Positions 4,126 through 31,291 of a DNA stretch of 64,000 bases are shown piece by piece. The notes under the pieces were generated by a model, which was given only the letters and a program-made list of their open reading frames with translations, was not told the DNA's origin and made no database searches. The translations under genes and the position numbers were made by a program. Each line of letters starts with the position of its first letter. Position 1 is the first letter of the stretch. The stretch lies in the IMG/VR virus record IMGVR_UViG_3300043786_001086; one strand, 5' to 3'. This stretch comes from a virus (Duplodnaviria > Caudoviricetes).

Positions 4126-4129
4126 AATT

Positions 4130-8010: not shown

Positions 8011-8029
8011 AAATAATATTTTTAATACA

Positions 8030-12429: not shown

Positions 12430-13524
12430 TTAGTTAGAAAGTGGCATTTTTATACTTGGGTGTGATTTGTAATTTTTAAGTGTGAAATCGCCAATAGTAT
12501 AAGATTCTATTGATGGTCTTGAACCTTCATAGGTGGGGAACTGATTAAGAGTTGGTAATTCAAATGGTTCTCTTGTTAATTGTTCTTTCACACCATCAAT
12601 TTGATTTAGATATATGTGACAATCTCCCATATTTGAAATCAATTCTTCAGGTACCATATTAACCTCTTTTGCCAATATCATCAAAAGTAACCCATATGAA
12701 GCCAAATTAAATGGAAGCCCGAGCGGAACATCATTGCTTCTCATATTGAACATTAAAGAGATTGCCCTGGTTGGTATACTACAATCATTGAATAAACTAT
12801 TCCATCCATTTTCATCTGTCGGAAAAATATCTTTAACATAAGACGATTTATCATATATGTCTTTTCTTTCCTGTAAACTGAACTCTCTTGTATAAATTTG
12901 AAATCCATAATGACAAGGTGGAAGAGTCATCTGGTCCAATTCCGATGGGTTCCAAGCTGTAACCATCAATCTTCGGCTATCAGGATTTGTTTTAAGGTCG
13001 TGAATAAGATTTTTTATCTGGTCAAGTTTAGGCACTTCAGAAAAATGAGTAACAGCCCCATGATTCCATCCTGAAGGTTTTTTATCAAAGCCACCCCACG
13101 CTCTCCATTGTCTACCATACACAGGACCTAAATCTCCCCACTTCTTAGCAAACTCATCATCTGTTTTGATTTTGTTGATGAACTCTTCTTGTGTACTAGG
13201 CCATCCTATTGCAACTAAATTTTGGTAACCTCCAGAGATAATCTTTTGACCGTAGTTCTTATAAGCATCACCGTCCCAAATATGACAATCATTATCTATA
13301 AGGTATTTAATGTTCGTATCACCACGTAGGAACCAAATCAATTCAGTTACAATTCCTTTCCAAAACATTTTCTTGGTTGTGAGTAAAGGAAATCCTTCAC
13401 TCATGTTGTGTCTGATCTGACGACCAAAAACACTGATGGTTCCTCCATTTCTTGTTTCTTTTTTTACCCCATTATCCAAAATATCTTGAAGTAAATCTTG
13501 GTATTGTTTGTCTAAATTATTCAT
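12430..13524 (-). CDS. thyA: Thymidylate synthase ThyA
   Basis: FPLLTTKK, ELIWFLRG, DLGPVYG.QWR, DSRR, PPCH, LGLPFN, GDCHIY; uninterrupted. Confidence 0.95.
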   Translation of the reverse strand: MNNLDKQYQDLLQDILDNGVKKETRNGGTISVFGRQIRHNMSEGFPLLTTKKMFWKGIVTELIWFLRGDTNIKYLIDNDCHIWDGDAYKNYGQKIISGGYQNLVAIGWPSTQEEFINKIKTDDEFAKKWGDLGPVYGRQWRAWGGFDKKPSGWNHGAVTHFSEVPKLDQIKNLIHDLKTNPDSRRLMVTAWNPSELDQMTLPPCHYGFQIYTREFSLQERKDIYDKSSYVKDIFPTDENGWNSLFNDCSIPTRAISLMFNMRSNDVPLGLPFNLASYGLLLMILAKEVNMVPEELISNMGDCHIYLNQIDGVKEQLTREPFELPTLNQFPTYEGSRPSIESYTIGDFTLKNYKSHPSIKMPLSN

Positions 13525-13529: not shown

Positions 13530-14378
13530 TTATTTTTTATATTCCCATTTATAACCACCAGCGGTTTCTTGTTTTCCTTTACATACCGCAGATATATTGA
13601 ATATTTTTAATTGTTTTTCAACTTCTGTTATACTATCCCAAGTATAAAGTAAATTACCATTTAAATCAAATTGTAAAACCTGTAATCTTTTTTTTGATGA
13701 TCCTGTTGACACACCTTTTTTCAATTTTGATAGTTTTTCTGAAAACCCTTTTGGTTTAGGTTTTCTCATTTTATTTTTTGTTTCTTCAGATAGTTTCCTA
13801 CCTTTACCCGCCTTTGATATTTTTTCTTTGGCTTCGTCAGTATGCTTCCACCCATTCTCTAATTTATATTGCTGATGTTGTGATATTTTTAATCTCCATT
13901 CAAAATGTCTTCTATCGGCCTCTTCTTTACCATATTTTTCTAACCATAAACTATAACGACCTTTTTTAGTTAGTTCTGTGCCGTTTTCCTTGTTATGTTT
14001 TATGATTTTTTCAATTTGTTGTTTTTTTCTAATATCAGCTTCTTCCTGACCGTGTTTTTCAACCCAATAATTATAAATTCCGTTTTTAGTAATGTCTTGA
14101 CCTATTTGTCTGTCACCCTCTTTACCACCATTACTTATATTATAACCAATTTTTCTATCTTGACTATTATATTTTAATATCCAGTAAACTTCTCTTTCAT
14201 TCATATGATTTTCATCAACACACTCTTCTAAAATTTCTTTTACAAAATTTTCTTTACCATATTTTTTTATGGCTCTTTGTATTTTTTTACCACTTCCGAA
14301 GTAAGATGGGTTATTATTTCTATCTTGACCGATATAGATTTTATTATTAAGATTGTTAGTTATTTTATAGATAATCAT
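13530..14378 (-). mobile_element. Free-standing GIY-YIG homing endonuclease
   Basis: IIYKITN..N.KIYIGQ..YFGSG; HTDEAKEKIS; QFDLNG..W.S...TAGGYKW. Confidence 0.88.
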
Positions 14379-18941: not shown

Positions 18942-19574
18942 TTATTCGTTATCATAAAACATTCTCTCACTGTCTTCTGTGTGCCATTTTTCATGGTCTT
19001 CCACATTATAAAATTCATTACAAACGAGGTAATCTGGTTTTTCAGGAAAGGGTTTGGTCACAAAACTTGGTTCGGACCATTTAATTCTATTATTAGGTTG
19101 TAAGGCAATTTGTCCGTTATCTAATAATATTATGTGATGGGATTTATGTTCCATTGGATCTTCGGACAATGTGATATCAGTATTAATATCATTTGAACCC
19201 CAATTTATAGTGGCAAAATATTTACCCGAATAAAATTTTCTATCTTTCATATAAACTTCAACAGGTCCACCTGAAACAAAATTTAATTTAAGAAGTGTGA
19301 AATTATATGAAAAACAATTCCATAATTGTAAATAATGAAATGGAAGATCTGGATTTGGTAATTCAGGTTTTGTTAGTAGTGCATGTGACGGGAGTTTATC
19401 TCTCATAACCCCATTATCTAATAGAACTTGAAATAAGGCCGCTTGACCTGGCATACATCTCACAGAAATAATAATCCCTTGAGTGAAATTACCCTTTCCA
19501 TTTTTACCCTGATAAAAGTATTCGTCTCTAACCCAAACTTTTAAAGGATAAAAATTATGTTCAATGTAAGCCAT
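18942..19574 (-). CDS. Hypothetical protein (full copy of MAYIEHNF family)
   Basis: 210 aa; truncated paralog at 28461..28676. Confidence 0.8.
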   Translation of the reverse strand: MAYIEHNFYPLKVWVRDEYFYQGKNGKGNFTQGIIISVRCMPGQAALFQVLLDNGVMRDKLPSHALLTKPELPNPDLPFHYLQLWNCFSYNFTLLKLNFVSGGPVEVYMKDRKFYSGKYFATINWGSNDINTDITLSEDPMEHKSHHIILLDNGQIALQPNNRIKWSEPSFVTKPFPEKPDYLVCNEFYNVEDHEKWHTEDSERMFYDNE

Positions 19575-19681
19575 TATTTTTTCTTTCTTTTCTTAAAGTA
19601 TCTGTATGTAAGATATCCTCCCAATAATATTATTGTTAAAGAAATCCCAAACACATGTACATATGTTTCAAGTAACGTCAT
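19574..19681 (-). CDS. Single-TM peptide (35 aa)
   Basis: MTLLETYVHVFGISLTIILLGGYLTYRYFKKRKKK; paralog at 28676..28786. Confidence 0.7.
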   Translation of the reverse strand: MTLLETYVHVFGISLTIILLGGYLTYRYFKKRKKK

Positions 19682-19795
19682 AGACTATATTTGTAAACCC
19701 CATTATCTAATTCAACATCCAACAACCCATCATTTTCTAATATTTTTTTATCAAATCCCATCTTTAACTCCATTTTCAATTGTTTCTAATTTCAT
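19678..19795 (-). pseudogene. Chimeric remnant: DTIQNGVK-type repeat joined to 3' end of a 28783..29100 paralog
   Basis: MKLETIENGVKDGI* (19751-19795) overlapping ...KILENDGLLDVELDNGVYKYSL*. Confidence 0.6.
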
Positions 19796-19901
19796 ATTAT
19801 TTATTTTTAAATTTTTCAAATTTATTTTGTCCAACCCACAAAAAAGAAAAGAAAAAGGTTCAGTTCTCCGAATGAGCATTTGTGGTTAATTACCGTACTA
19901 C

Positions 19902-19956
19902 TGCTAACAGCGTGTATAAAACATTAAAACGATTTTATACACGCAAAACGTTAGCG
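19902..19956 (+). other. attC-like site 1 (backbone site, 55 bp)
   Basis: TGCTAAC A GCGTGTATAAAA...TTTTATACACGC AAAAC GTTAGCG. Confidence 0.85.
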
Positions 19957-19960
19957 GTAA

Positions 19961-20197
19961 TTATAGAACCGCCCAATGTGTAACTTTCTCCATAGTCATA
20001 AAACCGAAGATATTTTTCTTTGGTCTAATCCTAAAAGGTTTTTCATCTTCAATGCCGTTTTCAAATCTAACTGCATAGTAATCTTCGGTTTCAGGTAGTC
20101 GCTCCGTTACAGGAATCCATAAATAACTACCGCTAACATCAGATATATCCAATTTGGGGTTCTCTGCGTTATTCAAATTTTGTTCTTCTTTGTTCAT
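19961..20197 (-). CDS. Cassette 1: DUF551-like protein; starts inside attC2
   Basis: WIPVTERLPE...VTHW; N-terminal DISDVSGS encoded by attC arm/R''. Confidence 0.75.
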   Translation of the reverse strand: MNKEEQNLNNAENPKLDISDVSGSYLWIPVTERLPETEDYYAVRFENGIEDEKPFRIRPKKNIFGFMTMEKVTHWAVL

Positions 20198-20260
20198 TTT
20201 ATATTAATTTAAAGTTTATACTATTTAATCCCAAACTGGGCATATCTGCGACCGTTATAT
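20131..20260 (+). other. attC-like site 2 (130 bp)
   Basis: CGCTAAC..AGATATATCCAATTTGGG / CCCAAACTGGGCATATCT..GTTATAT. Confidence 0.85.
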
Positions 20261-20593
20261 TCAATTATTTTTATTTTTACGGGGATATATTCTAATACTA
20301 GTTAAATCATAATTATATTCAAATATATTCAAATTATCTGATAATTTATTTAAATGTTTTTCTATAAATTCCTCATAATCCCACCAATCTTCCATAGTCT
20401 CTGGCATCTCCCAGTCAATTTCATATTTAATGTAGATACTATTATCTCCTCTTTTAAGTATTTCTGTAAATTTAATAGGTGAATTCATAAATTCTTTCTC
20501 TATTTTACTTAAAATATTGTCCAATATATTTTCTTTAGAGAAATCATCTTCCAAAAGAGATTCAAATGTTTTTAAAAATTTTAATTTTCTCAT
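20261..20593 (-). CDS. Cassette 2: hypothetical with phage-type MRKLKFLKTFES leader
   Basis: ORF bounded by attC2 and attC3. Confidence 0.75.
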   Translation of the reverse strand: MRKLKFLKTFESLLEDDFSKENILDNILSKIEKEFMNSPIKFTEILKRGDNSIYIKYEIDWEMPETMEDWWDYEEFIEKHLNKLSDNLNIFEYNYDLTSIRIYPRKNKNN

Positions 20594-20669
20594 AGTTTTA
20601 ATTTTTTTTTATAATCTATATATTAATAAAAAAAAAACGGTTTTTTGAAATAATTGAAAAAATAACTGA

Positions 20670-20723
20670 ATATAACAAATGATAAACAACATTAAAACGA
20701 TTGTTTATCATCAGACGTTATAG
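20670..20723 (+). other. attC-like site 3 (54 bp)
   Basis: ATATAAC AAATGATAAACAACATTAAAACGATTGTTTATCATCAGAC GTTATAG. Confidence 0.85.
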
Positions 20724-20753
20724 GCAATATTTAAAAGTTTTTTTGCCATTGCA

Positions 20754-21311
20754 CTATTTAGAGTTTTCAAGTTGCTCAAGTTCTTTTTTCATCTTTTCAA
20801 TTCTCCTTTGTTTCGCATCTTCTTTATTAAGTTCGTAGTACTTTTTTAAAAGCAAATCAAACGAGTTAAAAACATCTTTTGCGTTTTCTAATTTCCAATA
20901 TAATCCGAGATTTACTTCGTCTATGTAATCAGGCGTAAATGATTTTAATTCAAGCCAAAACTTTTGAAAGAAATTTACGGCATAATCTTCTCCAAAAATG
21001 TATGCACCAGTTGGAAAGCATATTTGTAATAACATTTCATCTTCGGGCTGTATTCCATCAACGCTCCAAATTATAGTTCTTCTGTGTTTTTCGCCCCACA
21101 TCCCAATCGCCCTATATTCTCCAAACCTAACCCAATCCATATTTTTAATTTGTTTAGAGTCAATATTTAGCCCGTAAACTTCTTTCAGTTCAAGTCCAAA
21201 TAAATGTGTTTTGGCTTTTCTTTCCAATTCACTTACATCAAAAACGCAAATTTCTCTGTGTTTATGTAATGCTTTTAAAATTTCATCGTATGCTTCTTTT
21301 ACTTTTTTCAT
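20754..21311 (-). CDS. Cassette 3: hypothetical protein
   Basis: 185-aa ORF between attC3 and attC4. Confidence 0.8.
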   Translation of the reverse strand: MKKVKEAYDEILKALHKHREICVFDVSELERKAKTHLFGLELKEVYGLNIDSKQIKNMDWVRFGEYRAIGMWGEKHRRTIIWSVDGIQPEDEMLLQICFPTGAYIFGEDYAVNFFQKFWLELKSFTPDYIDEVNLGLYWKLENAKDVFNSFDLLLKKYYELNKEDAKQRRIEKMKKELEQLENSK

Positions 21312-21363
21312 TTTATGTTTATTTTAATTGTTAATTCCTTCGCTAAAAACTTTTAAATACAGC

Positions 21364-21437
21364 CTATAACAGCACATACACGCTATTTCCCTGCCCTCAA
21401 TACAACGCTCACAGCGTGTATGTGCAAAACGTTATAA
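21364..21437 (+). other. attC-like site 4 (74 bp)
   Basis: CTATAAC A GCACATACACGCT...AGCGTGTATGTGC AAAAC GTTATAA. Confidence 0.88.
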
Positions 21438-21444
21438 GTTATTT

Positions 21445-21861
21445 TCATAATATCTCATAATCTTTTAATATTTGAATATGGTGTTCTCTCCATTTATTTT
21501 TTGAAACTCCAATTGAGTTAGATTTTATGAATTTCCACCCATGATAATACGCACCTAATTCTCGTTTTAATACATTTCTACCATATTCGTAAGGACAAAC
21601 ATTATATACATAGATATAATCTCTAAAAGTTAGAAAATGTCCATATTCATGTAGAAGTGTTAGAAACATATTCTCATTAGATTGTTCTGAATTTACATAT
21701 ATTATCTGTTTCAAAAAATTAAATCTCCCACCTATATCCCCAAATTTTGAACTATCTATAATCTCAACTTTTATGTTTTTTTGAACTTCTTCTTTTAAAA
21801 GATTGAATTCATTCATATAAAAGTCATCAATTTCCTTTACTATTAAATCTACCATATTCAA
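21445..21861 (-). CDS. Cassette 4: putative zinc metallopeptidase (ImmA/IrrE-like)
   Basis: TLLHEYGH (HExxH) plus downstream E..A. Confidence 0.65.
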   Translation of the reverse strand: MNMVDLIVKEIDDFYMNEFNLLKEEVQKNIKVEIIDSSKFGDIGGRFNFLKQIIYVNSEQSNENMFLTLLHEYGHFLTFRDYIYVYNVCPYEYGRNVLKRELGAYYHGWKFIKSNSIGVSKNKWREHHIQILKDYEIL

Positions 21862-21878
21862 ATATAATAAAAAACAAC

Positions 21879-21932
21879 TTATAACAAATGATAAACAACA
21901 TTAAAACGATTGTTTATCATCGGACGTTAGCG
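21879..21932 (+). other. attC-like site 5 (54 bp)
   Basis: Interior near-identical to sites 3 and 7. Confidence 0.85.
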
Positions 21933-21939
21933 GCAAGTG

Positions 21940-22221
21940 CTACTCCTCCACCACTCTATCAGTTTTACCGCCATACAAACGAAACCACCCTGAACCTTCT
22001 GCCGAAACCAAAACATGTGTTTTGCTTGGTGAATGACTGCCATCGGAATGGTCAATAGCAGGAGTCGTTTCTGTGCGTACATGCTTTATTTTAAAACGGT
22101 GCATTACGGAATCATCAAGATTTAACATTTCGTAAAACTTTCCGATTAAATCCGCACCAGCCGCTAACAAGCGGTTAGCGTCATTGCCGTTTTCGTGGTT
22201 AATTGAAGTGTTGTTTTCCAT
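21940..22221 (-). CDS. Cassette 5: hypothetical; probable start MENNTS inside attC6
   Basis: ORF track extends to 22314 only by reading through the attC arm. Confidence 0.65.
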   Translation of the reverse strand: MENNTSINHENGNDANRLLAAGADLIGKFYEMLNLDDSVMHRFKIKHVRTETTPAIDHSDGSHSPSKTHVLVSAEGSGWFRLYGGKTDRVVEE

Positions 22222-22295
22222 ATCAAATTTTGTTTTTAAATTAAAGTTTCGTGTTCCAAAGTCGGCAACGAACGCCAACCGCCCAACCGTTATGT
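22162..22295 (+). other. attC-like site 6 (134 bp)
   Basis: CGCTAAC..GCGGTTAGCGTCATTGCCG / CGGCAACGAACGCCAACCGC..GTTATGT. Confidence 0.85.
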
Positions 22296-22317
22296 GTAAT
22301 AATTTTTTACCCACCTA

Positions 22318-22590
22318 CTAATAAATTTTATAAACTTCTAAATTTCTATGACTTTTCTTCAATACTCCTTTTTCTGTTTCTATACTAAACAAAGTGTCTC
22401 CGTTTTGAAGTTCTTCTTTATCTGTTATAACACCGTCCATTAAAGATTTATTAAAGTGAAAAGTTATTTTATCACCTATATTTAGTTGTTTGATTTCCAT
22501 CGGTGAAAATCCTCTTTCACCAGAACCATCTAAATATGATTTTCCTTCTTTTAAGAAGTTTTTAAATCTCTTAATTCTATTCTCTTTCAT
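22318..22590 (-). CDS. Cassette 6: hypothetical (KOW/SH3-like) with MKENRIKRFKNFLKE leader
   Basis: LNIGDKITF...GVI; own TATTTAT motif at 22657-22663. Confidence 0.75.
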   Translation of the reverse strand: MKENRIKRFKNFLKEGKSYLDGSGERGFSPMEIKQLNIGDKITFHFNKSLMDGVITDKEELQNGDTLFSIETEKGVLKKSHRNLEVYKIY

Positions 22591-22699
22591 AGTTCTGTCT
22601 TTTATTTTAAGTTTATATATAAAATCTCAGAACTGAATATATCTGAGATTTTATATATAAATAGTTCAAATTAAGAATTTCCACCCACAAAATTACTAC

Positions 22700-22753
22700 A
22701 CATAACAAATGATAAACAACATTAAAACGATTGTTTATCATCGGACGTTATAC
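22700..22753 (+). other. attC-like site 7 (54 bp)
   Basis: ACATAAC...GTTATAC; interior identical to site 5. Confidence 0.85.
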
Positions 22754-23125
22754 GCAAGCACTACCATTCTGCTCCGTATTGACAATTTCATCTACCGAAA
22801 GTAAATCGGATATATCTGCAAGATGAGTTTCTAAATCCATTCCTACCTGTTCGTAATCACAAAATCTGTGAAAACAATCTCCTTGTTCTCTATCTTGAAC
22901 ACAATCTCTTTCTTCTCCATTTTCCAAGAAAACACCACAACCAGTGCATTTATCACATACACTTTCTTCGGGGTGTTCTCCATCTCTCAAAACCCTACTT
23001 TGCCATCCTTTTGAATAAGCATTGTAGATTTTTTCTAAAACAGATTTTGTTTTTTCAACGAACTCTTTTTGGCTCATCTTGTATGGCTCTTGTGGTTCGA
23101 TTTTAAATAAGTCATCTATATTCAT
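22748..23125 (-). CDS. Cassette 7: Cys-containing hypothetical protein
   Basis: CDKCTGC...C...C; stop codon is the TAA of the GTTA core. Confidence 0.75.
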   Translation of the reverse strand: MNIDDLFKIEPQEPYKMSQKEFVEKTKSVLEKIYNAYSKGWQSRVLRDGEHPEESVCDKCTGCGVFLENGEERDCVQDREQGDCFHRFCDYEQVGMDLETHLADISDLLSVDEIVNTEQNGSACV

Positions 23126-23161
23126 TTCAATTAAATTTTGTTGTTAATTAACCGTGCCAGC

Positions 23162-23244
23162 GTATAACAGCGGTTTTGTGCAAGCTGCCCGACCGCTCAA
23201 TGCCAACGCTTCGCAGCCTGACACAAAGCCGCAAAACGTTAGCG
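23162..23244 (+). other. attC-like site 8 (83 bp)
   Basis: GTATAAC A GCGGTTTTGTG / CACAAAGCCGC AAAAC GTTAGCG. Confidence 0.88.
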
Positions 23245-23257
23245 GTAATAAAATTTA

Positions 23258-23443
23258 CTACAACCGTTCCGCAACCTTAGTACCTAATTTGTTATACTCT
23301 CTACCTTCTTCTTCTGCCATCAATCTTACAGCATCTTGTATCTGTTTAGGTAAATCATCACCAAATTTACCTAATAATTGGTATAACAAATTTTGCTTAG
23401 ATAAAGCATTTTCTCTTCTGATTAACAATTCTATTTCTTTCAT
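23258..23443 (-). CDS. Cassette 8: small hypothetical protein
   Basis: 61-aa ORF between attC8 and attC9. Confidence 0.65.
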   Translation of the reverse strand: MKEIELLIRRENALSKQNLLYQLLGKFGDDLPKQIQDAVRLMAEEEGREYNKLGTKVAERL

Positions 23444-23463
23444 AATACGTAAATTTTACATAC

Positions 23464-23595
23464 CGCTAACAAAGTATAACCAAAAGTGGGGCGGTAGTTC
23501 CCAAAATCAGTTATTGTGCTTCTAATTTACTTTTGTAGGTAAGTCTGGGTTTAGCACTTTTAATCCCCACCTTCGGTTATACTCAACCGTTATAA
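23464..23595 (+). other. attC-like site 9 (132 bp)
   Basis: CGCTAAC..AGTATAACC....GTGGGG / CCCCAC....GGTTATACT..GTTATAA. Confidence 0.85.
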
Positions 23596-23599
23596 AACA

Positions 23600-23800
23600 T
23601 TATAAACGACCACCCCACTCAAATTTTATTTCATCAACATTGTAGTCAATATTATAATCTCTTTTGAGTATTTCAATTGCTTCCAGTTTTGCTTCATCTT
23701 CGTTTGAAACAACTCCACCTAATCTAATCTCTTTTTTATTTATAGTCATACTGTGATTAGTACCAGCAAAACTTCCGTTCCAATAAAATTTTATTTCCAT
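23600..23800 (-). CDS. Cassette 9: small hypothetical protein
   Basis: 66-aa ORF. Confidence 0.7.
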   Translation of the reverse strand: MEIKFYWNGSFAGTNHSMTINKKEIRLGGVVSNEDEAKLEAIEILKRDYNIDYNVDEIKFEWGGRL

Positions 23801-23812
23801 ATAAATAACGTT

Positions 23813-23933
23813 TTATAACAACAAATATAAGCAATTATTTCATTACTTCCAAATAAATGTTGTTGGTTAATATTTAATTTTGTTCTTTTAATTAAGTTTC
23901 GTTAATAACTGCTTATATTTGCAACCGTTATAA
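23813..23933 (+). other. attC-like site 10 (121 bp)
   Basis: TTATAAC..CAAATATAAGCA / TGCTTATATTTG..GTTATAA. Confidence 0.85.
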
Positions 23934-23939
23934 GTAATA

Positions 23940-24215
23940 TTATTTTTGTTTTGTGATTTTTATATGATATTTTAACTTAACACTTTCTTCATTTGTTTCT
24001 AATATACCGAATACAATATCTAAAGTTTCTGGGTCAACCATCATTGGTGTGACTTTCAAATTAGAATCTAAATTTTTTAATGTATCTTCTATTTTTGATA
24101 CAATTACTTTAGGTATTCCACTATCAACATCTTTAAATGTACCTAAGAACTTATAATCTGATACATCTTCTTTATTAAACTCTATTTCAGGGGTTTTAAT
24201 AATATAATTTTCCAT
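23940..24215 (-). CDS. Cassette 10: hypothetical protein (probable start MENYII)
   Basis: ORF between attC10 and attC11. Confidence 0.7.
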   Translation of the reverse strand: MENYIIKTPEIEFNKEDVSDYKFLGTFKDVDSGIPKVIVSKIEDTLKNLDSNLKVTPMMVDPETLDIVFGILETNEESVKLKYHIKITKQK

Positions 24216-24255
24216 ATTTAATTTTTTTATAAGGTAAAACAAAAATAATACATAC

Positions 24256-24340
24256 TTATAACAACAAATATAAGAAATAAATTTTGATTTTCCAAATTTT
24301 TATAGGTAAAATTTACTTCTCATATTTGAAACCGTTAGCA
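24256..24340 (+). other. attC-like site 11 (85 bp)
   Basis: TTATAAC..CAAATATAAGAAATAAATTTT / AAAATTTACTTCTCATATTTG..GTTAGCA. Confidence 0.85.
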
Positions 24341-24349
24341 GTAATGCCA

Positions 24350-24583
24350 TCAAAACGTAATCAATGGTACTGTAAATGTCGTAACCTTGCCACAAGAAGG
24401 GCAGGTATATTCATAAGTTCCTGCTGTTAAATAAATGTGCATCGGTGGGTTATGGTCAGGATGTAGGCAAGGTTGCTCTGCATCTTTAATTTTACGAAGT
24501 CCACCTTTGGCACTACTGCTAACATTGTGTAAATTCAATGCCTGTGCAGTGCTTTGTTGATAATTTTCTACTTGATTTTTCAT
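24350..24583 (-). CDS. Cassette 11: zinc-ribbon-like protein; starts inside attC12
   Basis: CLHPDH...YTCPSCG; N-terminal LHNVSSS encoded by attC. Confidence 0.7.
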   Translation of the reverse strand: MKNQVENYQQSTAQALNLHNVSSSAKGGLRKIKDAEQPCLHPDHNPPMHIYLTAGTYEYTCPSCGKVTTFTVPLITF

Positions 24584-24648
24584 TTTATTTTTAATTTAAA
24601 GTTTATACTAATTTTACGGCACTGAAATTTACACAAGTACCGTTACCT
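24517..24648 (+). other. attC-like site 12 (132 bp)
   Basis: TGCTAAC..TTGTGTAAATTCAATGCC / GGCACTGAAATTTACACAA..GTTACCT. Confidence 0.85.
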
Positions 24649-24667
24649 GCCATTTTAAGACAGACCG

Positions 24668-25027
24668 CTAATCGTTCCATTCTTGACATTCAGTAATATC
24701 ATATTGCTTGAATACACCACGACCATCAGTATTAGTTATAATCAAAGCAAGATTTGATGAATAGTAGCCGTTGTTTGAGCCATAACCAGGTATTCTAACA
24801 GGATGTCCATTTTTAGGCTTTAAGGCTATTCCATAATCTTCTATTCTTTCAAAGAAATCATCATTTGACAAATCAAATTCCAATCCTTTAAAATCATCCA
24901 ATGTCAAATCTGACAAAGACAAATAGTGATGCTCACAGCATTGTTGGTCGTGGTCTGAAAATAAAATCATTCCATTATCAAATTCTAATGAATCTGAATC
25001 AATTTTTACTACTTTTAAATTTTCCAT
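24668..25027 (-). CDS. Cassette 12: hypothetical protein
   Basis: HDQQCCE...GYGSNNGYYS motifs. Confidence 0.8.
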   Translation of the reverse strand: MENLKVVKIDSDSLEFDNGMILFSDHDQQCCEHHYLSLSDLTLDDFKGLEFDLSNDDFFERIEDYGIALKPKNGHPVRIPGYGSNNGYYSSNLALIITNTDGRGVFKQYDITECQEWND

Positions 25028-25084
25028 TTTACTTTATTTTAATTGTTTATAAATCAAATCTGTGAGTTACCGACAAAAAACGGC

Positions 25085-25215
25085 AGGTAACATCGGTTTT
25101 GTGCAAGTGGGGCTGAATTGCTAAATTAAACAGCAGTAATTCTAATAGGCTTTTGTACTGATTTGAAACTTTCGTGTTCCAAATCCCCACCTGCACAAAG
25201 CCTTTTTCGTTAGCT
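25085..25215 (+). other. attC-like site 13 (131 bp)
   Basis: AGGTAAC..GGTTTTGTGCAAGTGGGG / CCCCACCTGCACAAAGCC..GTTAGCT. Confidence 0.85.
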
Positions 25216-25416
25216 GCCATTTACGACAGACTTCGCCATAGTAGCATTTTGCAAAATTGATATTGCTTGGTTCAACTCAATAATCATTTCCAAATCCGAC
25301 TTTGTATCGGGTATTGGACTGTCCAAACTTGCCCTGTGGACAATGATAGAGTTTTCAATAAAAGACCTTTCAGCCTTTTCACGCATTTCTTTTAATGTTC
25401 TAATTGTTCTTTCCAT
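25210..25416 (-). CDS. Cassette 13: hypothetical protein (probable start MERTIR)
   Basis: Stop is the TAA of the GTTA core; ORF track extends into attC14. Confidence 0.65.
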   Translation of the reverse strand: MERTIRTLKEMREKAERSFIENSIIVHRASLDSPIPDTKSDLEMIIELNQAISILQNATMAKSVVNGS

Positions 25417-25427
25417 AATTAAACGGC

Positions 25428-25521
25428 AGCTAACACTGCATTTGTGCAAGCGGGCGGACAGCTTGCGGTTAATATTAAGTTGCATCTATGCCCGCCTGAC
25501 ACAAATGCTTCAACGTTAGCA
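25428..25521 (+). other. attC-like site 14 (94 bp)
   Basis: AGCTAAC..GCATTTGTGCAAGCGGGC / GCCCGCCTGACACAAATGC..GTTAGCA. Confidence 0.88.
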
Positions 25522-25533
25522 GTAATACTACAT

Positions 25534-26184
25534 TTAGTCTTCGATTGAAGGTTCGTCTGTAATATCTTTTTCTTTTCTTTTTTCTCCCCCACCATTAAAT
25601 AATTCTTGAATTTTGTTAATTTCATCTTGTTTCCAAGTTCTATTTGTTTTACCGTCTTCTGAAATTGTCAAATATTGATAATCATACCTTAATGGTCTTT
25701 CAATTAACCAAGGTGTTGGTTCAGGTTTAACTGCAATCCAACCATCTTTCGTTTTACCAATAGGTTCAGTTCCCTCTATAATTTTTTCCGAGCCATCCAA
25801 TGGTAATAAATCTCTTGTTTCATTATAAATTATTCTTGTATCTTTGAATAGTTCATATACTAATCCAACATCTTCACCAGTCCATTCAGCATCTTCTGTT
25901 TGATGTTCGTATTTTTTTGCAAGAAAATAACCATCACATTCTGTTCTTAAAACATATTTTTGATGTAATATTTTTCTACATTCTCTATTATAATGGTCAA
26001 TAGTGTTTTGAATATCTTCTTGTCCTTTCCAATAGTTGTCTTCGCCTACCGAAAGCGAATCACCATTTTGTGGCTGTTCACCAACAAATTTTTGATTGTC
26101 TAAACAAGCCAGTATCATTTCAAAGGAATCTTCCGATATTACAATGTTTCCTTTACCGTCTTTTTTTGCTTCAATTTTCATCAT
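25534..26184 (-). CDS. Hypothetical protein
   Basis: 216-aa ORF. Confidence 0.75.
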   Translation of the reverse strand: MMKIEAKKDGKGNIVISEDSFEMILACLDNQKFVGEQPQNGDSLSVGEDNYWKGQEDIQNTIDHYNRECRKILHQKYVLRTECDGYFLAKKYEHQTEDAEWTGEDVGLVYELFKDTRIIYNETRDLLPLDGSEKIIEGTEPIGKTKDGWIAVKPEPTPWLIERPLRYDYQYLTISEDGKTNRTWKQDEINKIQELFNGGGEKRKEKDITDEPSIED

Positions 26185-26188
26185 AGTT

Positions 26189-27379
26189 TTAAATTTTAGT
26201 TTTTAACATTTCTTTATAAGCATTACCTGTATCAAATTGTTGTTCAAATGTTGGATTTGGATAATGTTCGTTTTTAATCCAATTATCGTGATGTTCAAAT
26301 GTTCTCCATTCATTATCACGTAATTCTTTTACCATATTCATCAATCCAGTTCCAACTTTCATATCAGAAGGAATTTCAACTCCACCATCTGGTGTAACTT
26401 TTTCAATTGTTTCTTCAATAAACATTTGGTTCAAGAATGTTACCTCTCTAGTTTCTTTAACACCATTTTCAATGGCATCATCAATACTTGATCCAAATGT
26501 GAATGGTCTATCAGATACGTCTTTAATACCACTTTGAATGGTGTCTTCAATACCGACTAATCTATCCGTTTTTGCTAACACAGTGTCCTTTACTCCATTT
26601 TGAATGGCGTCCTTAACCCCACTCCTTATCCTCATCCCATCTACTTCGGTGTGTCTTACCCCATTTTGAATGGTGTCTTCAACCTCATTATTTTGTTTTG
26701 GAGATTCAATTTGATGAACTATTTTCCCTTTCATCTCCATTGAACCCAAATAACCACTAGGTGTTGTTTCTTTCACCCCATTTTGAATGGTGTCTTCAAT
26801 GTATTTAATTGGTGGTGAATTGAATGTTCGTGTTTCTTTTACACCATTTTGAATTGCGATTTCAATACCACCTTTTCGGTAACCAATTTTGTAATTGGTT
26901 TCTTTCACCCCCTCTTGAATGGTATCTTCAACTAAGGTATTATTAGTATATTCAAAATAATCGGTGTGTCTTACCCCATTTTGAATGGTGTCTTTAACTG
27001 CAGAAATTTCATCCGCATTTAAATCCCAAGTGTGTTTCACCCCATTTTGAATGGTATCTTTAACCTTCAATGGTTTTCCAGCAGTGCTTAAACTTTCCTC
27101 AACCACATCAATACCCAAAAATCTTGATTCAAACCAGTTCTTGATCAAATCTCTTTCTTGAGTGCAGTCCTTACTGACTAGATCTAACTCATTTTGAAAT
27201 AGGTTATAGTTGAACCACAAAGTTTTATCTTTTGTGAATTCAACCACCCATCTTTTGTCTTCGGTAAAGATCAACCAAGTTGAACCTTGTTCTGTAATAT
27301 ACTTGTCTGCACCTTCAATCATTTGGTCAAACAACCCAAAGACAAGTTTCTCTAATTTTTTTCCTGATGGATTATTCAT
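26189..27379 (-). CDS. Family B protein (NPSGKKL domain plus 9 DTIQNGVK repeats)
   Basis: Probable start MNNPSG by homology with 27501..28070 and 38555..39106. Confidence 0.85.
   Translation of the reverse strand: MNNPSGKKLEKLVFGLFDQMIEGADKYITEQGSTWLIFTEDKRWVVEFTKDKTLWFNYNLFQNELDLVSKDCTQERDLIKNWFESRFLGIDVVEESLSTAGKPLKVKDTIQNGVKHTWDLNADEISAVKDTIQNGVRHTDYFEYTNNTLVEDTIQEGVKETNYKIGYRKGGIEIAIQNGVKETRTFNSPPIKYIEDTIQNGVKETTPSGYLGSMEMKGKIVHQIESPKQNNEVEDTIQNGVRHTEVDGMRIRSGVKDAIQNGVKDTVLAKTDRLVGIEDTIQSGIKDVSDRPFTFGSSIDDAIENGVKETREVTFLNQMFIEETIEKVTPDGGVEIPSDMKVGTGLMNMVKELRDNEWRTFEHHDNWIKNEHYPNPTFEQQFDTGNAYKEMLKTKI
26450..27064. CRISPR. In-frame CRISPR-like array 1: nine 36-nt repeats, 30-nt unique spacers (one 81 nt)
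   Basis: Consensus GGTGTKTCTTACCCCATTTTGAATGGTGTCTTYAAC, 66-nt period counted by hand; third-codon-position variation also present. Confidence 0.55.
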
Positions 27380-27500
27380 TTTATTTAATTTTTTCTCCGT
27401 TTTGAATGGTATATTCAACCCTTTTATATCGTAAGTCAGTTGATGTTCCTGTAGTGTGTTTCACCCCATTTTCAACGACATATTTCGTTCTCTGTTTTCT

Positions 27501-28070
27501 TTAACCATCATAACTTCGTTTTGTTTGTTTCACTCCATTTTCAATTGTGTCTATAATATAATGAGTCGCATCCAAACGCCACTCTTGGGTCTCCTTTACC
27601 CCGTTTTGAATGGTGTCTTCAACCAGGTCGGCCAGCGAAGCCAATTTTCCGCCGGTGTGTTTCACCCCATTTTGAATGGTATCTTCAACTGATATCCTGC
27701 GCAATGCGGACCTAACCTTGGTGTTCTTCACCCCATTTTGAATGGTGTCTTCAATTTGATACCACACATCTACCGGATTGTCCCAAGTTTTATCAACCTT
27801 TGGTTTATTCAAAAATCTATATTCAAACCATCTGGTTATGTATTCTTTATTTTCAACGCAATCCATACCAACCAATTCCATTTCATTTTTGAATAGTTTG
27901 TAGTTATACCATAGAGTTCCTCCTTCGGTATATTCAACAACCCATTGTCGTTCATTGGTAAAGATGATCCATAAACTACCACTATGATTGTATTGGTCAA
28001 CACCTTCAATCATTTGGTCAAATAGTTTGAACAAAATCTTATCTAATTTTTTTCCTGATGGATTTTTCAT
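27501..28070 (-). CDS. Family B protein (4 repeats; premature TAA in a spacer)
   Basis: Paralog; two further degenerate repeats continue in frame to ~27381. Confidence 0.85.
   Translation of the reverse strand: MKNPSGKKLDKILFKLFDQMIEGVDQYNHSGSLWIIFTNERQWVVEYTEGGTLWYNYKLFKNEMELVGMDCVENKEYITRWFEYRFLNKPKVDKTWDNPVDVWYQIEDTIQNGVKNTKVRSALRRISVEDTIQNGVKHTGGKLASLADLVEDTIQNGVKETQEWRLDATHYIIDTIENGVKQTKRSYDG
27522..27755. CRISPR. In-frame CRISPR-like array 2: four 36-nt repeats, 30-nt spacers
   Basis: Repeats at 27522, 27588, 27654, 27720. Confidence 0.55.
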
Positions 28071-28460: not shown

Positions 28461-28676
28461 TTATCTTGATCTTAACCATAAAGCATGACTTGGGAGTTTG
28501 TCTCTTAAAACACCATTTTCCAATAACACCTGAAATAGTGCCGCTTGACCTGGCATGCATCTAACAGAGATTATAACTCCTGGTGTCAATTCACCAAGTC
28601 CTTTTTTATGTTGATACATGTATTCATTTCTAACCCAAACTTTTAAGGGAAAGAAGTTGTGTTCAATATAAGCCAT
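28461..28676 (-). pseudogene. 3'-truncated copy of 18942..19574
   Basis: Aligns for 66 aa to DKLPSHAL then diverges and stops. Confidence 0.8.
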
Positions 28677-28786
28677 TATTTCTTTTTTCTTTTCTTAAAA
28701 TATCTATAGAGTAAATAAAACCCGATTATGTTGATTACAAATAATATTCCATATAGATGAACATAAGTTTCTAAAACGTTTGTCAT
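28676..28786 (-). CDS. Single-TM peptide (36 aa)
   Basis: MTNVLETYVHLYGILFVINIIGFYLLYRYFKKRKKE; paralog of 19574..19681. Confidence 0.7.
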   Translation of the reverse strand: MTNVLETYVHLYGILFVINIIGFYLLYRYFKKRKKK

Positions 28787-29100
28787 ATGCTGTATTTATA
28801 TACTCCATTCTCAAACTCAACGTCCATTAACCCATCATTTTCCAAGATCTTTTCAATTTGATCTGCTTGAAATTTAATGTTTTCTGGTTCCATGAAGACC
28901 TTATACGCCTGATTTGAAGAAAGTTTATTTTGTGTGACCAAATTATAAATTGTCTCGTTTTCACATTTTATAAGTGATCCGTGTTGACCTGCAACTGTAA
29001 CTATAACATTATCACCGATTTCGATTTTCTCTAACGATACGATATATGGTTTTTCTTGGACCATAATCATTTTTACTTTTTGTTTTGTTGTTTCACTCAT
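28783..29100 (-). CDS. Hypothetical protein
   Basis: C-terminus duplicated at 19678-19750. Confidence 0.75.
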   Translation of the reverse strand: MSETTKQKVKMIMVQEKPYIVSLEKIEIGDNVIVTVAGQHGSLIKCENETIYNLVTQNKLSSNQAYKVFMEPENIKFQADQIEKILENDGLMDVEFENGVYKYSI

Positions 29101-29441
29101 AATCTAATACCGTATAATTCTGATACGGCCTCCATGTATTTTTTTAAATTTATTACAGATTGTTTAAAATCTGTTTTTGGTAGTTCTTCAAATGTTTGAG
29201 CCAACTCATCATCGGTCAAAGTATTGATACAACTATCATAGATGTCTTTTAGTATCTGTAAATAAATTTCTTCTTTACTATAAGTATCATCTATTTTTTT
29301 TTCAAGCACCTGACCTTCCAACTCAACACAATAGTCGATTAACTCCTCAATAGGTGCCAAATCCATTAAATGTTCATTACCTTTGAATATTTGATTTATG
29401 TTCTTCATAATGTTTATCGCATAATGTGGTATGCCAACCAA
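29097..29441 (-). CDS. Hypothetical protein
   Basis: Paralog of 41403..41729. Confidence 0.75.
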   Translation of the reverse strand: MVGIPHYAINIMKNINQIFKGNEHLMDLAPIEELIDYCVELEGQVLEKKIDDTYSKEEIYLQILKDIYDSCINTLTDDELAQTFEELPKTDFKQSVINLKKYMEAVSELYGIRL

Positions 29442-29763
29442 TATTTGTTCTTAATTCTCCTTTTTCGCCACATTTCTCACAAGTTTCATAACTTAGATTT
29501 TCCGCCCGACTTATTCTTTTATGAACCTCGTTTGATGCCCCGTTAATATAAAATCTTAATCCACCAAACTTTTCCTTCACCTGACAAGTTTGTTTATCCC
29601 ATCCTAACTCAATAAGATCAATTATAAGATCCTTAATTAGTGAATACCAACCAGAACCAACATCAAAGAATCCGGAGTCTTTAATTGGTGGTCTATCATT
29701 GTAAAATCCATTTTCTAATCCTCCAATGGATTCCAAAAACTCATTCATTTCTTTATCTGTCAT
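29377..29763 (-). CDS. Hypothetical protein with C-terminal zinc finger
   Basis: QVKEKFGGLRFY...CEKCG..G...LC..H; paralog of 41689..42072. Confidence 0.8.
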   Translation of the reverse strand: MTDKEMNEFLESIGGLENGFYNDRPPIKDSGFFDVGSGWYSLIKDLIIDLIELGWDKQTCQVKEKFGGLRFYINGASNEVHKRISRAENLSYETCEKCGEKGELRTNIGWHTTLCDKHYEEHKSNIQR

Positions 29764-29853
29764 ATAATATAATTTAAAGATTCCAAATTGATTTTCGTTT
29801 TTTCTTTGGAAATCTAAACGACCACCAAAGAAGAATCTTTTGAATTGTTCTTT

Positions 29854-30441
29854 TCATTTTAAAAAATTAATAACCTTTTCTTTAATCCCACTTTGTTTAA
29901 TACCTTCTCTTGATCTTGGTGTTAAAACAAAATTAGTTAGACCAGGGTTTTTATCCTCACTATCCAAGAAGTATTTTGATAAAAACTCAAGACTCATATT
30001 AAGATCATCAATCGCAACCCAATGTGTGACTTCAGGATGATTCTTTAACCAATGTCCGATCTCCATACTTCGTTCTAATTCCAACTCAGCACGAAATCTA
30101 AACGCATTCCATTCTTTTGGAAAAAGGTCTCTAAATATGTCAGTCACCGCAATTGGTCGTTTAATAATACCTTGACTAATATAGTAATCACCAAGTTCAT
30201 CAAGTGTTGCATGTAATCTCCAATCAGAACTTACCACTATTTCACATCCAGTTTCTTCAATGATCTCATTTAGAACTTTAATTGTCCCTTTATCAAAGTC
30301 ATCAAAACGATATTGCACCGGAATTTCTCTTGGGGTCATGGATAATTTTCTTCCTCCCCATTTGTGTTGTTTTTTGTAACGACTACCCCAATTATTAGAG
30401 AGACAAATTACACTATCATGATCTAAGAATATAACTTTCAT
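29854..30441 (-). CDS. HAD-family protein (Swiss-Army-knife RNA-repair type)
   Basis: IFLDHD.V, IVVSSDWR, WVAIDD. Confidence 0.8.
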   Translation of the reverse strand: MKVIFLDHDSVICLSNNWGSRYKKQHKWGGRKLSMTPREIPVQYRFDDFDKGTIKVLNEIIEETGCEIVVSSDWRLHATLDELGDYYISQGIIKRPIAVTDIFRDLFPKEWNAFRFRAELELERSMEIGHWLKNHPEVTHWVAIDDLNMSLEFLSKYFLDSEDKNPGLTNFVLTPRSREGIKQSGIKEKVINFLK

Positions 30442-31076
30442 TATCTTATTGTTTGTGTTAATCTTTCGTAATTACTTTTGTTTTCAAATTGTCTTCCAAT
30501 TCTATACAAGTGGTTTGGGGATAAACCAAACCAAGTGTCACAGTGATGGAACTTTGAAAATTGTTCTGTCAACATATCTGAATCATCGTCTAATATTGCG
30601 TAATCATCAACTTCAGGGTGTTGATCCAACCACTCTTTAATTTCTTCACCTCGTAAAGTTCTTCTATTACCAGTGATTCCTACATAAGTTCCTGGTTTAA
30701 ATCCAAGTTTAACAAATGCGTCTTCCCATCTATAAGGTGTTGATATATGATCCTCAATACGAAAGTGATGTTTCCAACTCGAAGAAACACAAATTTTTGT
30801 GTTAGTTTTATTACACCATTCGCTCAACCATTTCCACTTTTGATCACAAGTTTCTTCTCGTAAATCCTTGAATTGATATTCAAAAGTGAAAGACTTTTTA
30901 GGTGGTTTATAATCCGCCAAAGAAACTCCTTTTGATTTAATTCTAAACAATTTTCTAACCAATCGCTTTAATTCATACCACCATGTGATAGGTTTTCTCC
31001 ATCGTCTTCTATGTCTTTCTTTATAAAAAACATTAGAGTTCATAACTCCATCAATATCCAAGAATATAACTTTCAT
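30441..31076 (-). CDS. HAD-family protein (Swiss-Army-knife RNA-repair type)
   Basis: IFLDIDGV, VSSSWK, RG.EI..WL, YAILDDDSD. Confidence 0.85.
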   Translation of the reverse strand: MKVIFLDIDGVMNSNVFYKERHRRRWRKPITWWYELKRLVRKLFRIKSKGVSLADYKPPKKSFTFEYQFKDLREETCDQKWKWLSEWCNKTNTKICVSSSWKHHFRIEDHISTPYRWEDAFVKLGFKPGTYVGITGNRRTLRGEEIKEWLDQHPEVDDYAILDDDSDMLTEQFSKFHHCDTWFGLSPNHLYRIGRQFENKSNYERLTQTIR

Positions 31077-31205
31077 TTTAAAAATTTTCTGTGTTTTCCT
31101 AAAACACCAATTACTAATACTGCAAATGTAAATAAAATACCAACCATAATCAAATTATAGTGGTTTATATAAAATAGAAAAGAAAGTATAACTATTTCAT
31201 TATAG

Positions 31206-31291
31206 ATTGTAAGCCTCAGACAACTAATGAGTGCCGACCCATTATAGATGGATAAGTTGTTACTCCCCTCAAATTGTAAGCCTCAGACAAC
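31206..31291 (-). CRISPR. CRISPR-like repeat-spacer-partial repeat inside/at end of CDS
   Basis: GTTGTCTGAGGCTTACAATTTGAGGGGAGTAACAAC (31256-31291), 31-nt spacer, 19-nt second copy. Confidence 0.55.

What the first reader, a model, noticed from the sequence alone, without database searches (positions are those of the whole stretch)
19890..25530. The array closes on itself: the phage backbone is formatted as one giant cassette
Seen: the R' flank of the last site (GTTAGCAGTAATAC, 25515) matches the R'' flank of the first site (reverse complement GTTAGCAGTAGTAC, ending 19908) at 13/14 nt, with the same A/G mismatch as the true cassettes. Inference: all 13 cassettes entered one ancestral phage attC site. 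The rest of the genome then has matched cassette ends and could in principle recombine into a host cassette array, picking up or depositing cassettes.
Basis: partly seen in the sequence, partly recalled or inferred. Interest (0 to 1): 0.85.

Follow-up and report, generated by a model that had tools for sequence, protein, structure and literature searches.

The report
Cassette circle captured inside phage gene
The matching ends of this phage's gene-cassette array are real, but they exist because a small circular bundle of cassettes recombined into an ordinary phage gene through its cargo, not because the phage genome is built as a giant mobile cassette.

Summary
The flank right of the last site (25515-25528) and the reverse complement of the flank left of the first site (19895-19908) agree at 13/14 nt, with the A/G difference at position 11 that all 13 true cassettes show.

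The two ends are not backbone. They are the 3' and 5' ends of a widespread ordinary cassette type ('Z', 0.8-1.4 kb), found intact in Flavobacterium phage mymlan6 and several viral contigs. Here they face outward.

Three relatives carry the uninterrupted target gene B. In the window B is split at a 15-nt identity, present as direct repeats at 19773-19787 and 26400-26414. These enclose exactly 6,627 bp: Z plus the 13 cassettes. That is Campbell-type capture of an excised cassette circle by short-homology recombination inside Z's cargo.

The Xer-like recombinase that sits beside such arrays in 19 of 19 other loci was not found in this window. The block is 100% identical in seven other assemblies.

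This scan had already reported the underlying phage integron-like system on other DNA. The capture event is the new part.

The parts
19390..19748 (.). Left copy of a diverged 360-bp direct repeat: the N-terminus of the ferredoxin-like gene plus the last codons of the neighbouring gene Y. Its partner lies at 28492-28853.
   Evidence: 76% identity between the copies. Relatives have a single copy. This is an older backbone mosaic junction, not part of the cassette system.
19680..19764 (-). Small chimeric ORF, MGFDKKIL|ENDGLL...YSL*. It joins the start of the gene that natively follows B to the C-terminus of gene Y.
   Evidence: In L211, L209 and L120, B is followed by MGFDKKIL..., and gene Y ends ...KILENDGLMDVEFENGVYKYSI.
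19752..19796 (-). Leftover reciprocal product, MKLETIE|NGVKDGI*: the start of the Z cargo gene fused to the last codons and stop of gene B.
   Evidence: The Z part is 95% identical to L117. The B part is identical to the end of the intact B in L211, L209 and L210.
19773..19787 (.). Left copy of the 15-nt crossover identity (AGAAACAATTGAAAA on the minus strand).
   Evidence: It occurs exactly twice in the window, once in the intact B of relatives, and in the Z gene of L117 with one mismatch.
19788..19894 (-). 5' conserved end of cassette Z ('module'): start codon, AT-rich leader, a TAAATTTG box about 24 nt upstream of the ATG, and an 18-nt polypurine tract at 19840-19857.
   Evidence: 79 nt are 88.6-94.3% identical to Z cassettes in mymlan6, L099, L062 and L004/L117. 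The promoter reading is inference.
19895..19950 (+). Site S1, Z's own hairpin site: left flank 19895-19908, inner hairpin 19909-19949, and the G of the crossover GTT at 19950.
   Evidence: The same left flank and a similar inner arm follow the module in L062 and L004.
19951..25515 (-). Thirteen cassettes with sites S2-S14. The ORFs lie on the minus strand. Each cassette runs from the TT of one GTTA box to the G of the next.
   Evidence: The chain rule holds for all 13.
25515..25592 (+). Right flank of S14 (25515-25528) plus the conserved 3' end of cassette Z ('tail'). The tail is translated as the C-terminal 25 residues of P0001 and holds the 18-nt inverted repeat partner at 25566-25583.
   Evidence: The same 16-17-nt flank and the conserved tail open ordinary Z cassettes in mymlan6, L099, L062 and L083.
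25534..26184 (-). P0001, a 216-aa cargo gene of Z with no family match.
   Evidence: DNA 25594-26414, which spans P0001 and the Z gene, is 93.5% identical to the Z cargo of L117-L119.
26189..26399 (-). C-terminal 70 codons of the Z cargo gene (...KVTPDGG...KTKI*), now the 3' part of the chimeric ORF 26189-27418.
   Evidence: In L117 it is a free-standing 80-aa gene, MKLETIVKVTPDGG....
26400..26414 (.). Right copy of the 15-nt crossover identity.
26415..27418 (-). Resident gene B: an N-terminal domain plus in-frame 36+30-nt repeat units. It is the recipient of the insertion.
   Evidence: Window 26400-26799 is 99.5% identical to L211, where B is uninterrupted.
28492..28853 (.). Right copy of the diverged 360-bp repeat: a truncated ferredoxin-like N-terminus (28461-28676) plus the C-terminus of gene Y.
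   Evidence: Window 28478-31291 is 96.9% identical to L230.

Best explanation
The array belongs to an integron-like system of Bacteroidota phages. Small cassettes are bounded by hairpin sites and exchanged at the G|TT of the right-hand box by a short Xer-like tyrosine recombinase. That recombinase is present beside such arrays in other phages and was not found in this window.

A circle of 6,627 bp, made of cassette Z (about 1.06 kb: tail, P0001, an 80-aa gene, promoter module, site S1) and most likely the 13 other cassettes, was excised from a donor array. It then entered this jumbo phage by one reciprocal crossover. The crossover used a 15-nt identity between the 5' end of Z's 80-aa gene and the last repeat unit of the resident gene B.

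Because the circle was opened inside Z's cargo and not at a site, Z's two ends now bracket the array and point outward. That is the 'closure'.

Shown: the closure; that the two ends belong to Z; the uninterrupted target; both reciprocal junctions; the 15-nt repeat.

Inferred: that the donor was a circle made by site-specific excision; that all 14 cassettes came in at once; which enzyme made the short-homology crossover.
For: 1. Closure of 13/14, extending into the conserved Z ends.

2. Z is an ordinary cassette of 816-1373 nt, in the order tail then module, in mymlan6, L099, L062 and L004/L117. Only the window has module, then array, then tail.

3. The intact B in L211, L209 and L210 reads as the window's sequence right of 26414 joined to the window's sequence left of 19773 through a single copy of the 15-mer. 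Window 26400-26799 is 99.5% identical to L211.

4. The 15-mer occurs exactly twice in the window, 6,627 bp apart. It is native to the Z gene in L117 with one mismatch, so this is homology, not a target-site duplication.

5. Both reciprocal products are present: the chimeric ORF 26189-27418 and the leftover MKLETIE|NGVKDGI*.

6. Crossover at the right-hand GTT is supported in two ways. For 101 sites sharing one identical core, left flanks are recurrent (47 types) and right flanks diverse (87 types). The chain rule also holds in 286 site pairs from other arrays.

7. A recombinase lies immediately left of the array in 19 of 19 loci, with an attI-like simple site next to it. This gives a source of excised circles.

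8. No Z sequence occurs in any of the 23 relatives that carry the B block.
Against: - No free circle, donor array with the same cassette order, or intermediate (B carrying Z alone) was found.
- 15 nt is short for homologous recombination, and the enzyme responsible is unknown.
- The direction of the event (insertion, or B restored by precise excision) rests on Z being an independent cassette elsewhere, not on a dated tree.
- The whole phage genome (a 246.5-kb contig exists) could not be searched for a distant recombinase gene.
Confidence: 0.85

Rival explanations
1. Two-step version. Only the 1.06-kb Z circle was captured in gene B. This gave the phage one empty site (the S1 inner hairpin joined to the right flank GTTAGCAGTAAT). 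The 13 cassettes then inserted there one by one, using a recombinase supplied by co-infecting phages. This is the part of the first reader's idea that survives.
For: It yields the same final structure. The closure junction folds like a true circular cassette site. Site-by-site insertion is what the chain rule in other arrays implies.
Against: It needs 13 separate events in trans in a phage where no recombinase was found in the window. Yet the recipient flank is still 99.5% identical to L211, and the block is invariant across seven other assemblies. No contig with B carrying Z alone was found.
Confidence: 0.3
2. The backbone carried an ancestral attC site, all cassettes entered it, and the rest of the genome is a functional giant cassette that can recombine into host cassette arrays.
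For: The topology is formally as described. Earlier notes of this scan, unchecked here, say that related sites also occur in Flavobacterium chromosomes.
Against: Relatives have no site here, only an uninterrupted gene. The closing ends are the ends of a mobile cassette. The commonest site core is in more than 113 viral stretches but only one 1.4-kb MAG contig among 185,579 species genomes. No recombinase was found in the window. None of 21 other complete arrays closes.
Confidence: 0.04
3. A donor array carried two copies of Z flanking the 13 cassettes. A linear piece running from mid-Z to mid-Z was then inserted by two crossovers.
For: Flanks of the type GTTAGCAGTAAT recur within arrays: S11/S12 in the window, and L235.
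Against: Both crossovers would have to fall in the same 15-mer and leave exactly reciprocal halves. No array with two Z copies was seen.
Confidence: 0.07
4. The closure is a chance resemblance between two unrelated flanks drawn from a limited repertoire.
For: Over 16 nt the left flank of S12 matches the right flank of S14 as well as the left flank of S1 does.
Against: The extended homology of both flanks to the two ends of one cassette family, together with the reciprocal junctions in gene B. Random flank pairs reach this match at 0.4%.
Confidence: 0.01

Closest known systems
Integrons and CALINs (clusters of attC sites lacking an integrase), including the phage CALINs of Qi et al. 2023 (PMC9892861)
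   Same: - Cassettes are bounded by imperfect hairpins with inverted ...TAAC / GTTA... boxes.
- Exchange occurs at G|TT, so each cassette's two ends are complementary.
- In related phages a recombinase gene with an adjacent simple attI-like site lies at one end of the array, in the same geometry relative to site orientation as intI-attI-array.
- The window's array has no integrase next to it, like a CALIN.
- The sequence of P12002L_attC1 in Table S3 of that paper shows the same grammar, including the loop ATTAAAACGA.
   Different: - The recombinase is a 268-aa Xer-like enzyme without the IntI-specific insertion. It scores 151 bits on TIGR02249 against a cut-off of 265, in two stretches, and its nearest solved structure is XerA.
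- The outer boxes pair over 12-15 nt, with a fixed position-11 G.T wobble on the gene-sense strand.
- ORFs are antisense to the classical layout, so the site lies 5' of its gene.
- P12002L_attC1 was the one site of six that IntI1 failed to recombine (PMC9892861, section 3.4).
Campbell-type integration of a circular element by a single reciprocal crossover (as lambda or a suicide plasmid integrates)
   Same: A circle enters a chromosome through one crossover. It leaves the crossover sequence as direct repeats on both sides and permutes the circle's gene order.
   Different: The crossover here is not at the element's own recombination site. It is at a fortuitous 15-nt identity inside its cargo, so the site-specific ends end up facing outward.
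Excision of several adjacent integron cassettes as one circle by attC x attC recombination (established integron biology, from my own knowledge)
   Same: It would produce exactly the 14-cassette circle required, with the S14 inner hairpin joined to Z's right flank.
   Different: It is inferred here and not observed. The enzyme would be the Xer-like recombinase of a co-infecting phage.
Promoter-stem-loop regulatory cassettes (PeSLs) of T4-type phage hyperplastic regions (recalled from memory, not checked here)
   Same: Small accessory phage genes are shuffled as modules that carry their own promoter and a stem-loop.
   Different: Shuffling there is attributed to homologous recombination between conserved elements. 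Here each cassette has its own box sequence, and the chain rule points to site-specific exchange.

Membership tests
Integron (IntI / attI / attC) | An integron integrase: a tyrosine recombinase with the IntI-specific additional domain | tested here: not met
   No tyrosine recombinase was found among the 38 larger window ORFs scanned against Pfam, nor by tblastn with the array-linked enzyme. The enzyme beside related arrays matches TIGR02249 at 151 bits (cut-off 265) in two stretches, and aligns to IntI4 (2a3v) only over residues 21-180.
Integron (IntI / attI / attC) | Cassettes bounded by folded imperfect-palindrome sites with inverse-core/core boxes, exchanged at G|TT | tested here: met
   There are 14 hairpin sites. 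The chain rule holds for all 13 cassettes here and for 286 site pairs elsewhere. Left-flank linkage places the crossover at the right-hand GTT.
Integron (IntI / attI / attC) | Sites recognised by attC models or recombined by IntI | not testable with these tools
   HattCI and IntegronFinder models are not available here, and Rfam has no hit. In the literature, the family member P12002L_attC1 was predicted by HattCI but was not recombined by IntI1 (PMC9892861).
Integron (IntI / attI / attC) | An attI site next to the integrase gene as the entry point | tested here: not met
   It is absent from the window. In 11 of the 15 related recombinase-bearing loci printed, a simple site of the form ..TATATAAT.TA|GTTA...AAT lies beside the start of the recombinase gene, and where compared it obeys the chain rule with the first hairpin.
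Integron (IntI / attI / attC) | ORF followed by its attC, read from a common promoter at the platform | tested here: not met
   All ORFs lie on the opposite strand to the classical layout, so the site sits 5' of its gene. In long sites the start codon lies inside the hairpin loop.
CALIN (cluster of attC sites lacking an integrase) | At least two attC-type sites in a row with no integrase nearby | tested here: met
   14 sites lie within 5.6 kb, and no recombinase was found in the 64-kb window. This holds only if these sites are accepted as attC-type.
Campbell-type insertion | An uninterrupted target in relatives, both reciprocal junctions, and the crossover sequence duplicated in direct orientation | tested here: met
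Transposon-like insertion with target-site duplication | The duplicated sequence is absent from the donor element | tested here: not met
   The 15-mer is native to the Z gene in L117, at 14/15 with Z-specific sequence on both sides.

The most novel reading that the evidence does not exclude
After the capture, the roughly 246-kb phage genome lies formally between matched cassette ends. In a cell co-infected by a recombinase-bearing phage, or in a host with a compatible array, S1 or S14 could recombine with a foreign site. That would fuse or exchange whole-genome segments as if the genome were one cassette.
Probability: 0.03. Interest if true: 0.8.

Novelty: new variant of a known kind. Interest (0 to 1): 0.5.

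Why it matters
The finding turns an eye-catching symmetry into a datable event with both junctions and the empty target in hand.

It is natural evidence that cassettes of this phage integron-like system exist as circles.

It also shows one concrete way in which a recombinase-less array (a CALIN) can be seeded in an unrelated genome: ordinary short-homology recombination through a cassette's cargo. How CALINs arise, and how cassettes cross between unrelated phages, are open points in integron biology.

It warns that matched array ends need not mean a resident recombination site.

The larger story is an integron analogue run by a Xer-like enzyme and shared among Bacteroidota phages. This scan had already noted it on other DNA. 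I found no paper describing it.

Tried and rejected
- **Whole genome:** none is held for this window. The 246.5-kb contig behind L205 could not be searched, so a distant recombinase gene is not excluded.
- **Reads:** I therefore have no read-level test for circles or cassette polymorphism.
- **Window in IMG/VR:** an exact 40-mer found nothing.
- **Rfam on the array:** only chance-level hits.
- **Predicted empty junction:** a pattern search of viral contigs gave one hit, L235. It is an ordinary array junction, not an empty site.
- **Closure as a general property:** 0 of 21 other arrays that lie complete within a locus reach 8/10. My detector may misplace some array ends.
- **Exact-protein look-ups** (P0001, a cassette protein, the ferredoxin-like protein): these returned only the same phage with the same array.
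- **Genes next to the array as recombinase candidates:** rejected. P0001 has no family match, and ORF 26189-27418 is a repeat protein.
- **mymlan6 gp001 as an integrase:** no Pfam match, and no PF00589 hit anywhere in that genome.
- **A canonical -33/-7 Bacteroidota promoter in the module:** only the -7-like TAAATTTG box is clear, and the spacing to the nearest TTTG is 14 nt, so I claim no more.


Full report
**1. Observation**

- The window is about 31% G+C, with nearly all genes on the minus strand. It carries phage-type genes: thymidylate synthase, RNA ligase, Acb3, Tad6 and GIY-YIG endonucleases.
- Its nearest named relatives are Flavobacterium phages. A protein with a T9SS sorting tail points to a Bacteroidota host.
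- Between 19895 and 25528 lie 14 hairpin sites in one orientation. Each has a left box ending ...TAAC, an inner stem-loop and a right box GTTA.... My detector finds these 14 and nothing convincing elsewhere in the 64 kb.
- For all 13 cassettes, the 12-16 nt after one GTTA box equal the reverse complement of the 12-16 nt before the next TAAC box, except at position 11, or 10-12 in a few.
- The outer pair does the same: 25515-25528 against 19895-19908 is 13/14 with the same A/G difference.
- On the box alone it is not unique. The left flank of S12 ties over 16 nt. Among random flank pairs from other arrays, a match this good occurs at 0.4%.

**2. The system**

- The 33-nt inner core shared by S3, S5 and S7 occurs exactly in more than 113 stretches of IMG/VR viral contigs. 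It occurs in a single 1.4-kb MAG contig among 185,579 prokaryote species genomes.
- In 130 non-redundant arrays from those contigs, the chain rule holds for most of 286 consecutive site pairs: the mode is 8-9 of 10, against 3-4 for random pairs.
- For 101 sites with the identical core, the left flank falls into a few recurrent families (47 types) while the right flank is diverse (87 types). The left flank and inner hairpin therefore travel together, and the exchange point is the right-hand G|TT.
- With that boundary every ORF lies whole within its cassette, but on the strand opposite to the classical integron layout. The site sits 5' of its gene, and in long sites the start codon lies inside the loop.
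- Stem mismatches are A/C on the plus strand, which means G.T wobbles on the minus strand. The minus strand folds more stably in 13 of 14 sites.
- A 268-aa tyrosine recombinase lies immediately left of the array, on the minus strand, with no site beyond it, in 19 of 19 loci where it was found.
  - It has PF00589 and PF13495 domains.
  - Its best NCBIfam hit is XerA, at 184 bits.
  - It scores 151 bits on the integron-integrase model, in two stretches and below the cut-off.
  - Its nearest solved structures are XerA (4a8e), then IntI4 (2a3v) over residues 21-180 only.
- Beside the start of that gene lies a simple attI-like site..TATATAAT.TA|GTTA...AAT. Where compared, its right flank obeys the chain rule with the first hairpin.
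- The enzyme has 5,129 homologues at E below 1e-30 in metagenomes; among the 120 best listed the longest contig is 217 kb.
- The window has no homologue and no tyrosine recombinase among its 38 larger ORFs scanned.
- Phage CALINs are published (Qi et al. 2023, PMC9892861). Their P12002L_attC1 has this family's grammar, including the loop ATTAAAACGA, and it was the one site of six that IntI1 did not recombine.
- Earlier notes of this scan describe the same Xer-linked phage arrays on other DNA.

**3. What the closing ends are**

- The right flank of S14 and the about 75 nt after it, and the about 110 nt before the left flank of S1, are conserved sequences found together elsewhere. They occur in:
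  - Flavobacterium phage mymlan6, around the methyltransferase gene gp007;
  - L099;
  - L062;
  - L004/L117;
  - L083, which shows the tail only because the locus ends 152 nt beyond it.
- Where both ends are present they occur in the order tail, cargo, module, next site, spanning 816-1373 nt. This is one ordinary cassette, here called Z.
- In L099 and L062 the 16-nt flanks are identical to the window's.
- The tail is translated as the C-terminal extension of whichever ORF is last. The module carries the leader and a TAAATTTG box upstream of the first ORF.
- In L117, Z holds a P0001 homologue and an 80-aa gene, MKLETIVKVTPDGG...; that DNA is 93.5% identical to window 25594-26414.
- Only in the window is the order module, array, tail.

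**4. How the array got there**

- Five backbone relatives (L120, L139, L143, L157, L168) run from the ferredoxin-like gene straight into gene Y, with no site.
- The ORF 26189-27418 is chimeric.
  - Its last 70 codons belong to Z's 80-aa gene.
  - The rest is a resident gene, B: an N-domain plus in-frame repeat units. B stands uninterrupted in L211, L209 and L210, at 99.5% identity to window 26400-26799 in L211.
- In those three contigs B ends ...IEETIENGVKDGI**. At the nucleotide level this is the window's sequence right of 26414 joined to the window's sequence left of 19773 through a single copy of AGAAACAATTGAAAA.
- The window has that 15-mer exactly twice, at 19773-19787 and 26400-26414, enclosing 6,627 bp.
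- The left copy sits in the leftover ORF MKLETIE|NGVKDGI*, which joins Z's start to B's stop.
- The 15-mer is native to the Z gene in L117, at 14/15. The event is therefore a reciprocal crossover at a short identity, not a target-site duplication.
- One crossover that leaves both reciprocal junctions in direct order around the insert is the signature of a circle integrating.
- The circle held Z (1,062 bp) and, most simply, the 13 cassettes already joined to it. A circle of that kind is what site-specific recombination between two sites of a donor array releases.
- Capture of Z alone followed by 13 insertions gives the same structure and cannot be excluded. I rate it lower for three reasons:
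  - no recombinase was found in the window;
  - the recipient flank is still 99.5% like L211;
  - the 7.2-kb block is 100% identical in seven other assemblies from different samples.
- The surrounding backbone is itself mosaic. A 360-bp repeat (76% identity) and the chimeric ORF MGFDKKIL|ENDGLL... mark an older junction. That junction joins an L139-like left part (85%) to an L230-like right part (96.9%).

**5. Verdict on the interpretation**

- The array is topologically closed, and formally the rest of the genome lies between matched cassette ends.
- That is a by-product of opening a cassette circle in its cargo. It is not evidence of an ancestral backbone site or of a genome designed to move as a cassette.
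- No other array examined closes: 0 of 21.
- Integration of the phage into host arrays has no support from anything I could test.

**6. Limits**

- No reads could be laid.
- The complete phage genome could not be searched.
- Host chromosomes were probed only with one exact core.
- No donor array or intermediate was found.

Noticed in passing
window 26415-27418, 27501-28070, 38555-39106: Three paralogous genes share an N-terminal domain followed by in-frame units of the form (E/D)DTIQNGVK(E/H)T plus variable spacers. The last unit of one of them supplied the 15-nt identity used for the capture.
   Followed up: partly
window 9810-10358 and 10714-11397: Pfam hits to Tad6 (Thoeris inhibitor, 53.5 bits) and Acb3 (CBASS inhibitor, 109 bits). 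These are anti-defence genes next to each other in the backbone.
   Followed up: no
window 11541-12374 and 13530-14378: Two GIY-YIG/NUMOD3 homing-endonuclease-like genes flank the thymidylate synthase gene (12430-13524).
   Followed up: no
L011, L117, L045, L034, L003, L042, L059, L101, L085, L049, L112: between the recombinase start and the first hairpin: A conserved simple site of the form ..ATATATAAT(A/C)TA|GTTAnnnnnnAAT, without a hairpin, lies beside the start of the recombinase gene. Where I compared it (L011, L045, L117), its right flank matches the left flank of the first hairpin. It looks like the attI equivalent.
   Followed up: partly
L002 (LR756500.1, 462-kb uncultured phage) 5789-6241: A homologue of the first cassette ORF, 91% identical at the DNA level, lacks both boxes; three bases of the left box are missing in frame. 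It abuts a fragment of the Xer-like recombinase (residues 36-111, 46%).
   Followed up: partly
L236 (Polaribacter phage P12002L) 2501-2562, and Table S3 of PMC9892861: P12002L carries sites of this family among its methyltransferase genes. The published P12002L_attC1 oligo has the same boxes, stem and ATTAAAACGA loop, but it is oriented opposite to the crossover side inferred here. It was the one site IntI1 failed to recombine.
   Followed up: partly
L200 (mymlan6-1) 1787-8030: A run of minus-strand small genes and four DNA methyltransferase genes in an isolated Flavobacterium siphophage is a cassette array of this family. No PF00589 hit exists anywhere in that 38.5-kb genome.
   Followed up: partly
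window 22612-22661: A perfect 20-nt inverted repeat with a 10-nt loop lies between the ORF 22318-22590 and site S7, inside a cassette. It may be a terminator or a degenerate site.
   Followed up: no
window 19300-26500 compared with L203-L208 and L232-L234: Wherever these loci overlap the 7.2-kb block they are 100.000% identical to it; five of the nine span all 7,201 nt. They come from seven assemblies of different samples. 24 lake or freshwater runs dated 2016-2024 hold 81-100% of the sampled words of 19300-26300. This looks like one clonal, persistent phage lineage.
   Followed up: partly
window 43062-47102: A 1,346-aa protein with Ig-like CHU_C-associated domains and a weak T9SS C-terminal sorting domain (23.7 bits, below the cut-off). 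This is an odd feature for a phage gene and a pointer to a Bacteroidota host.
   Followed up: no
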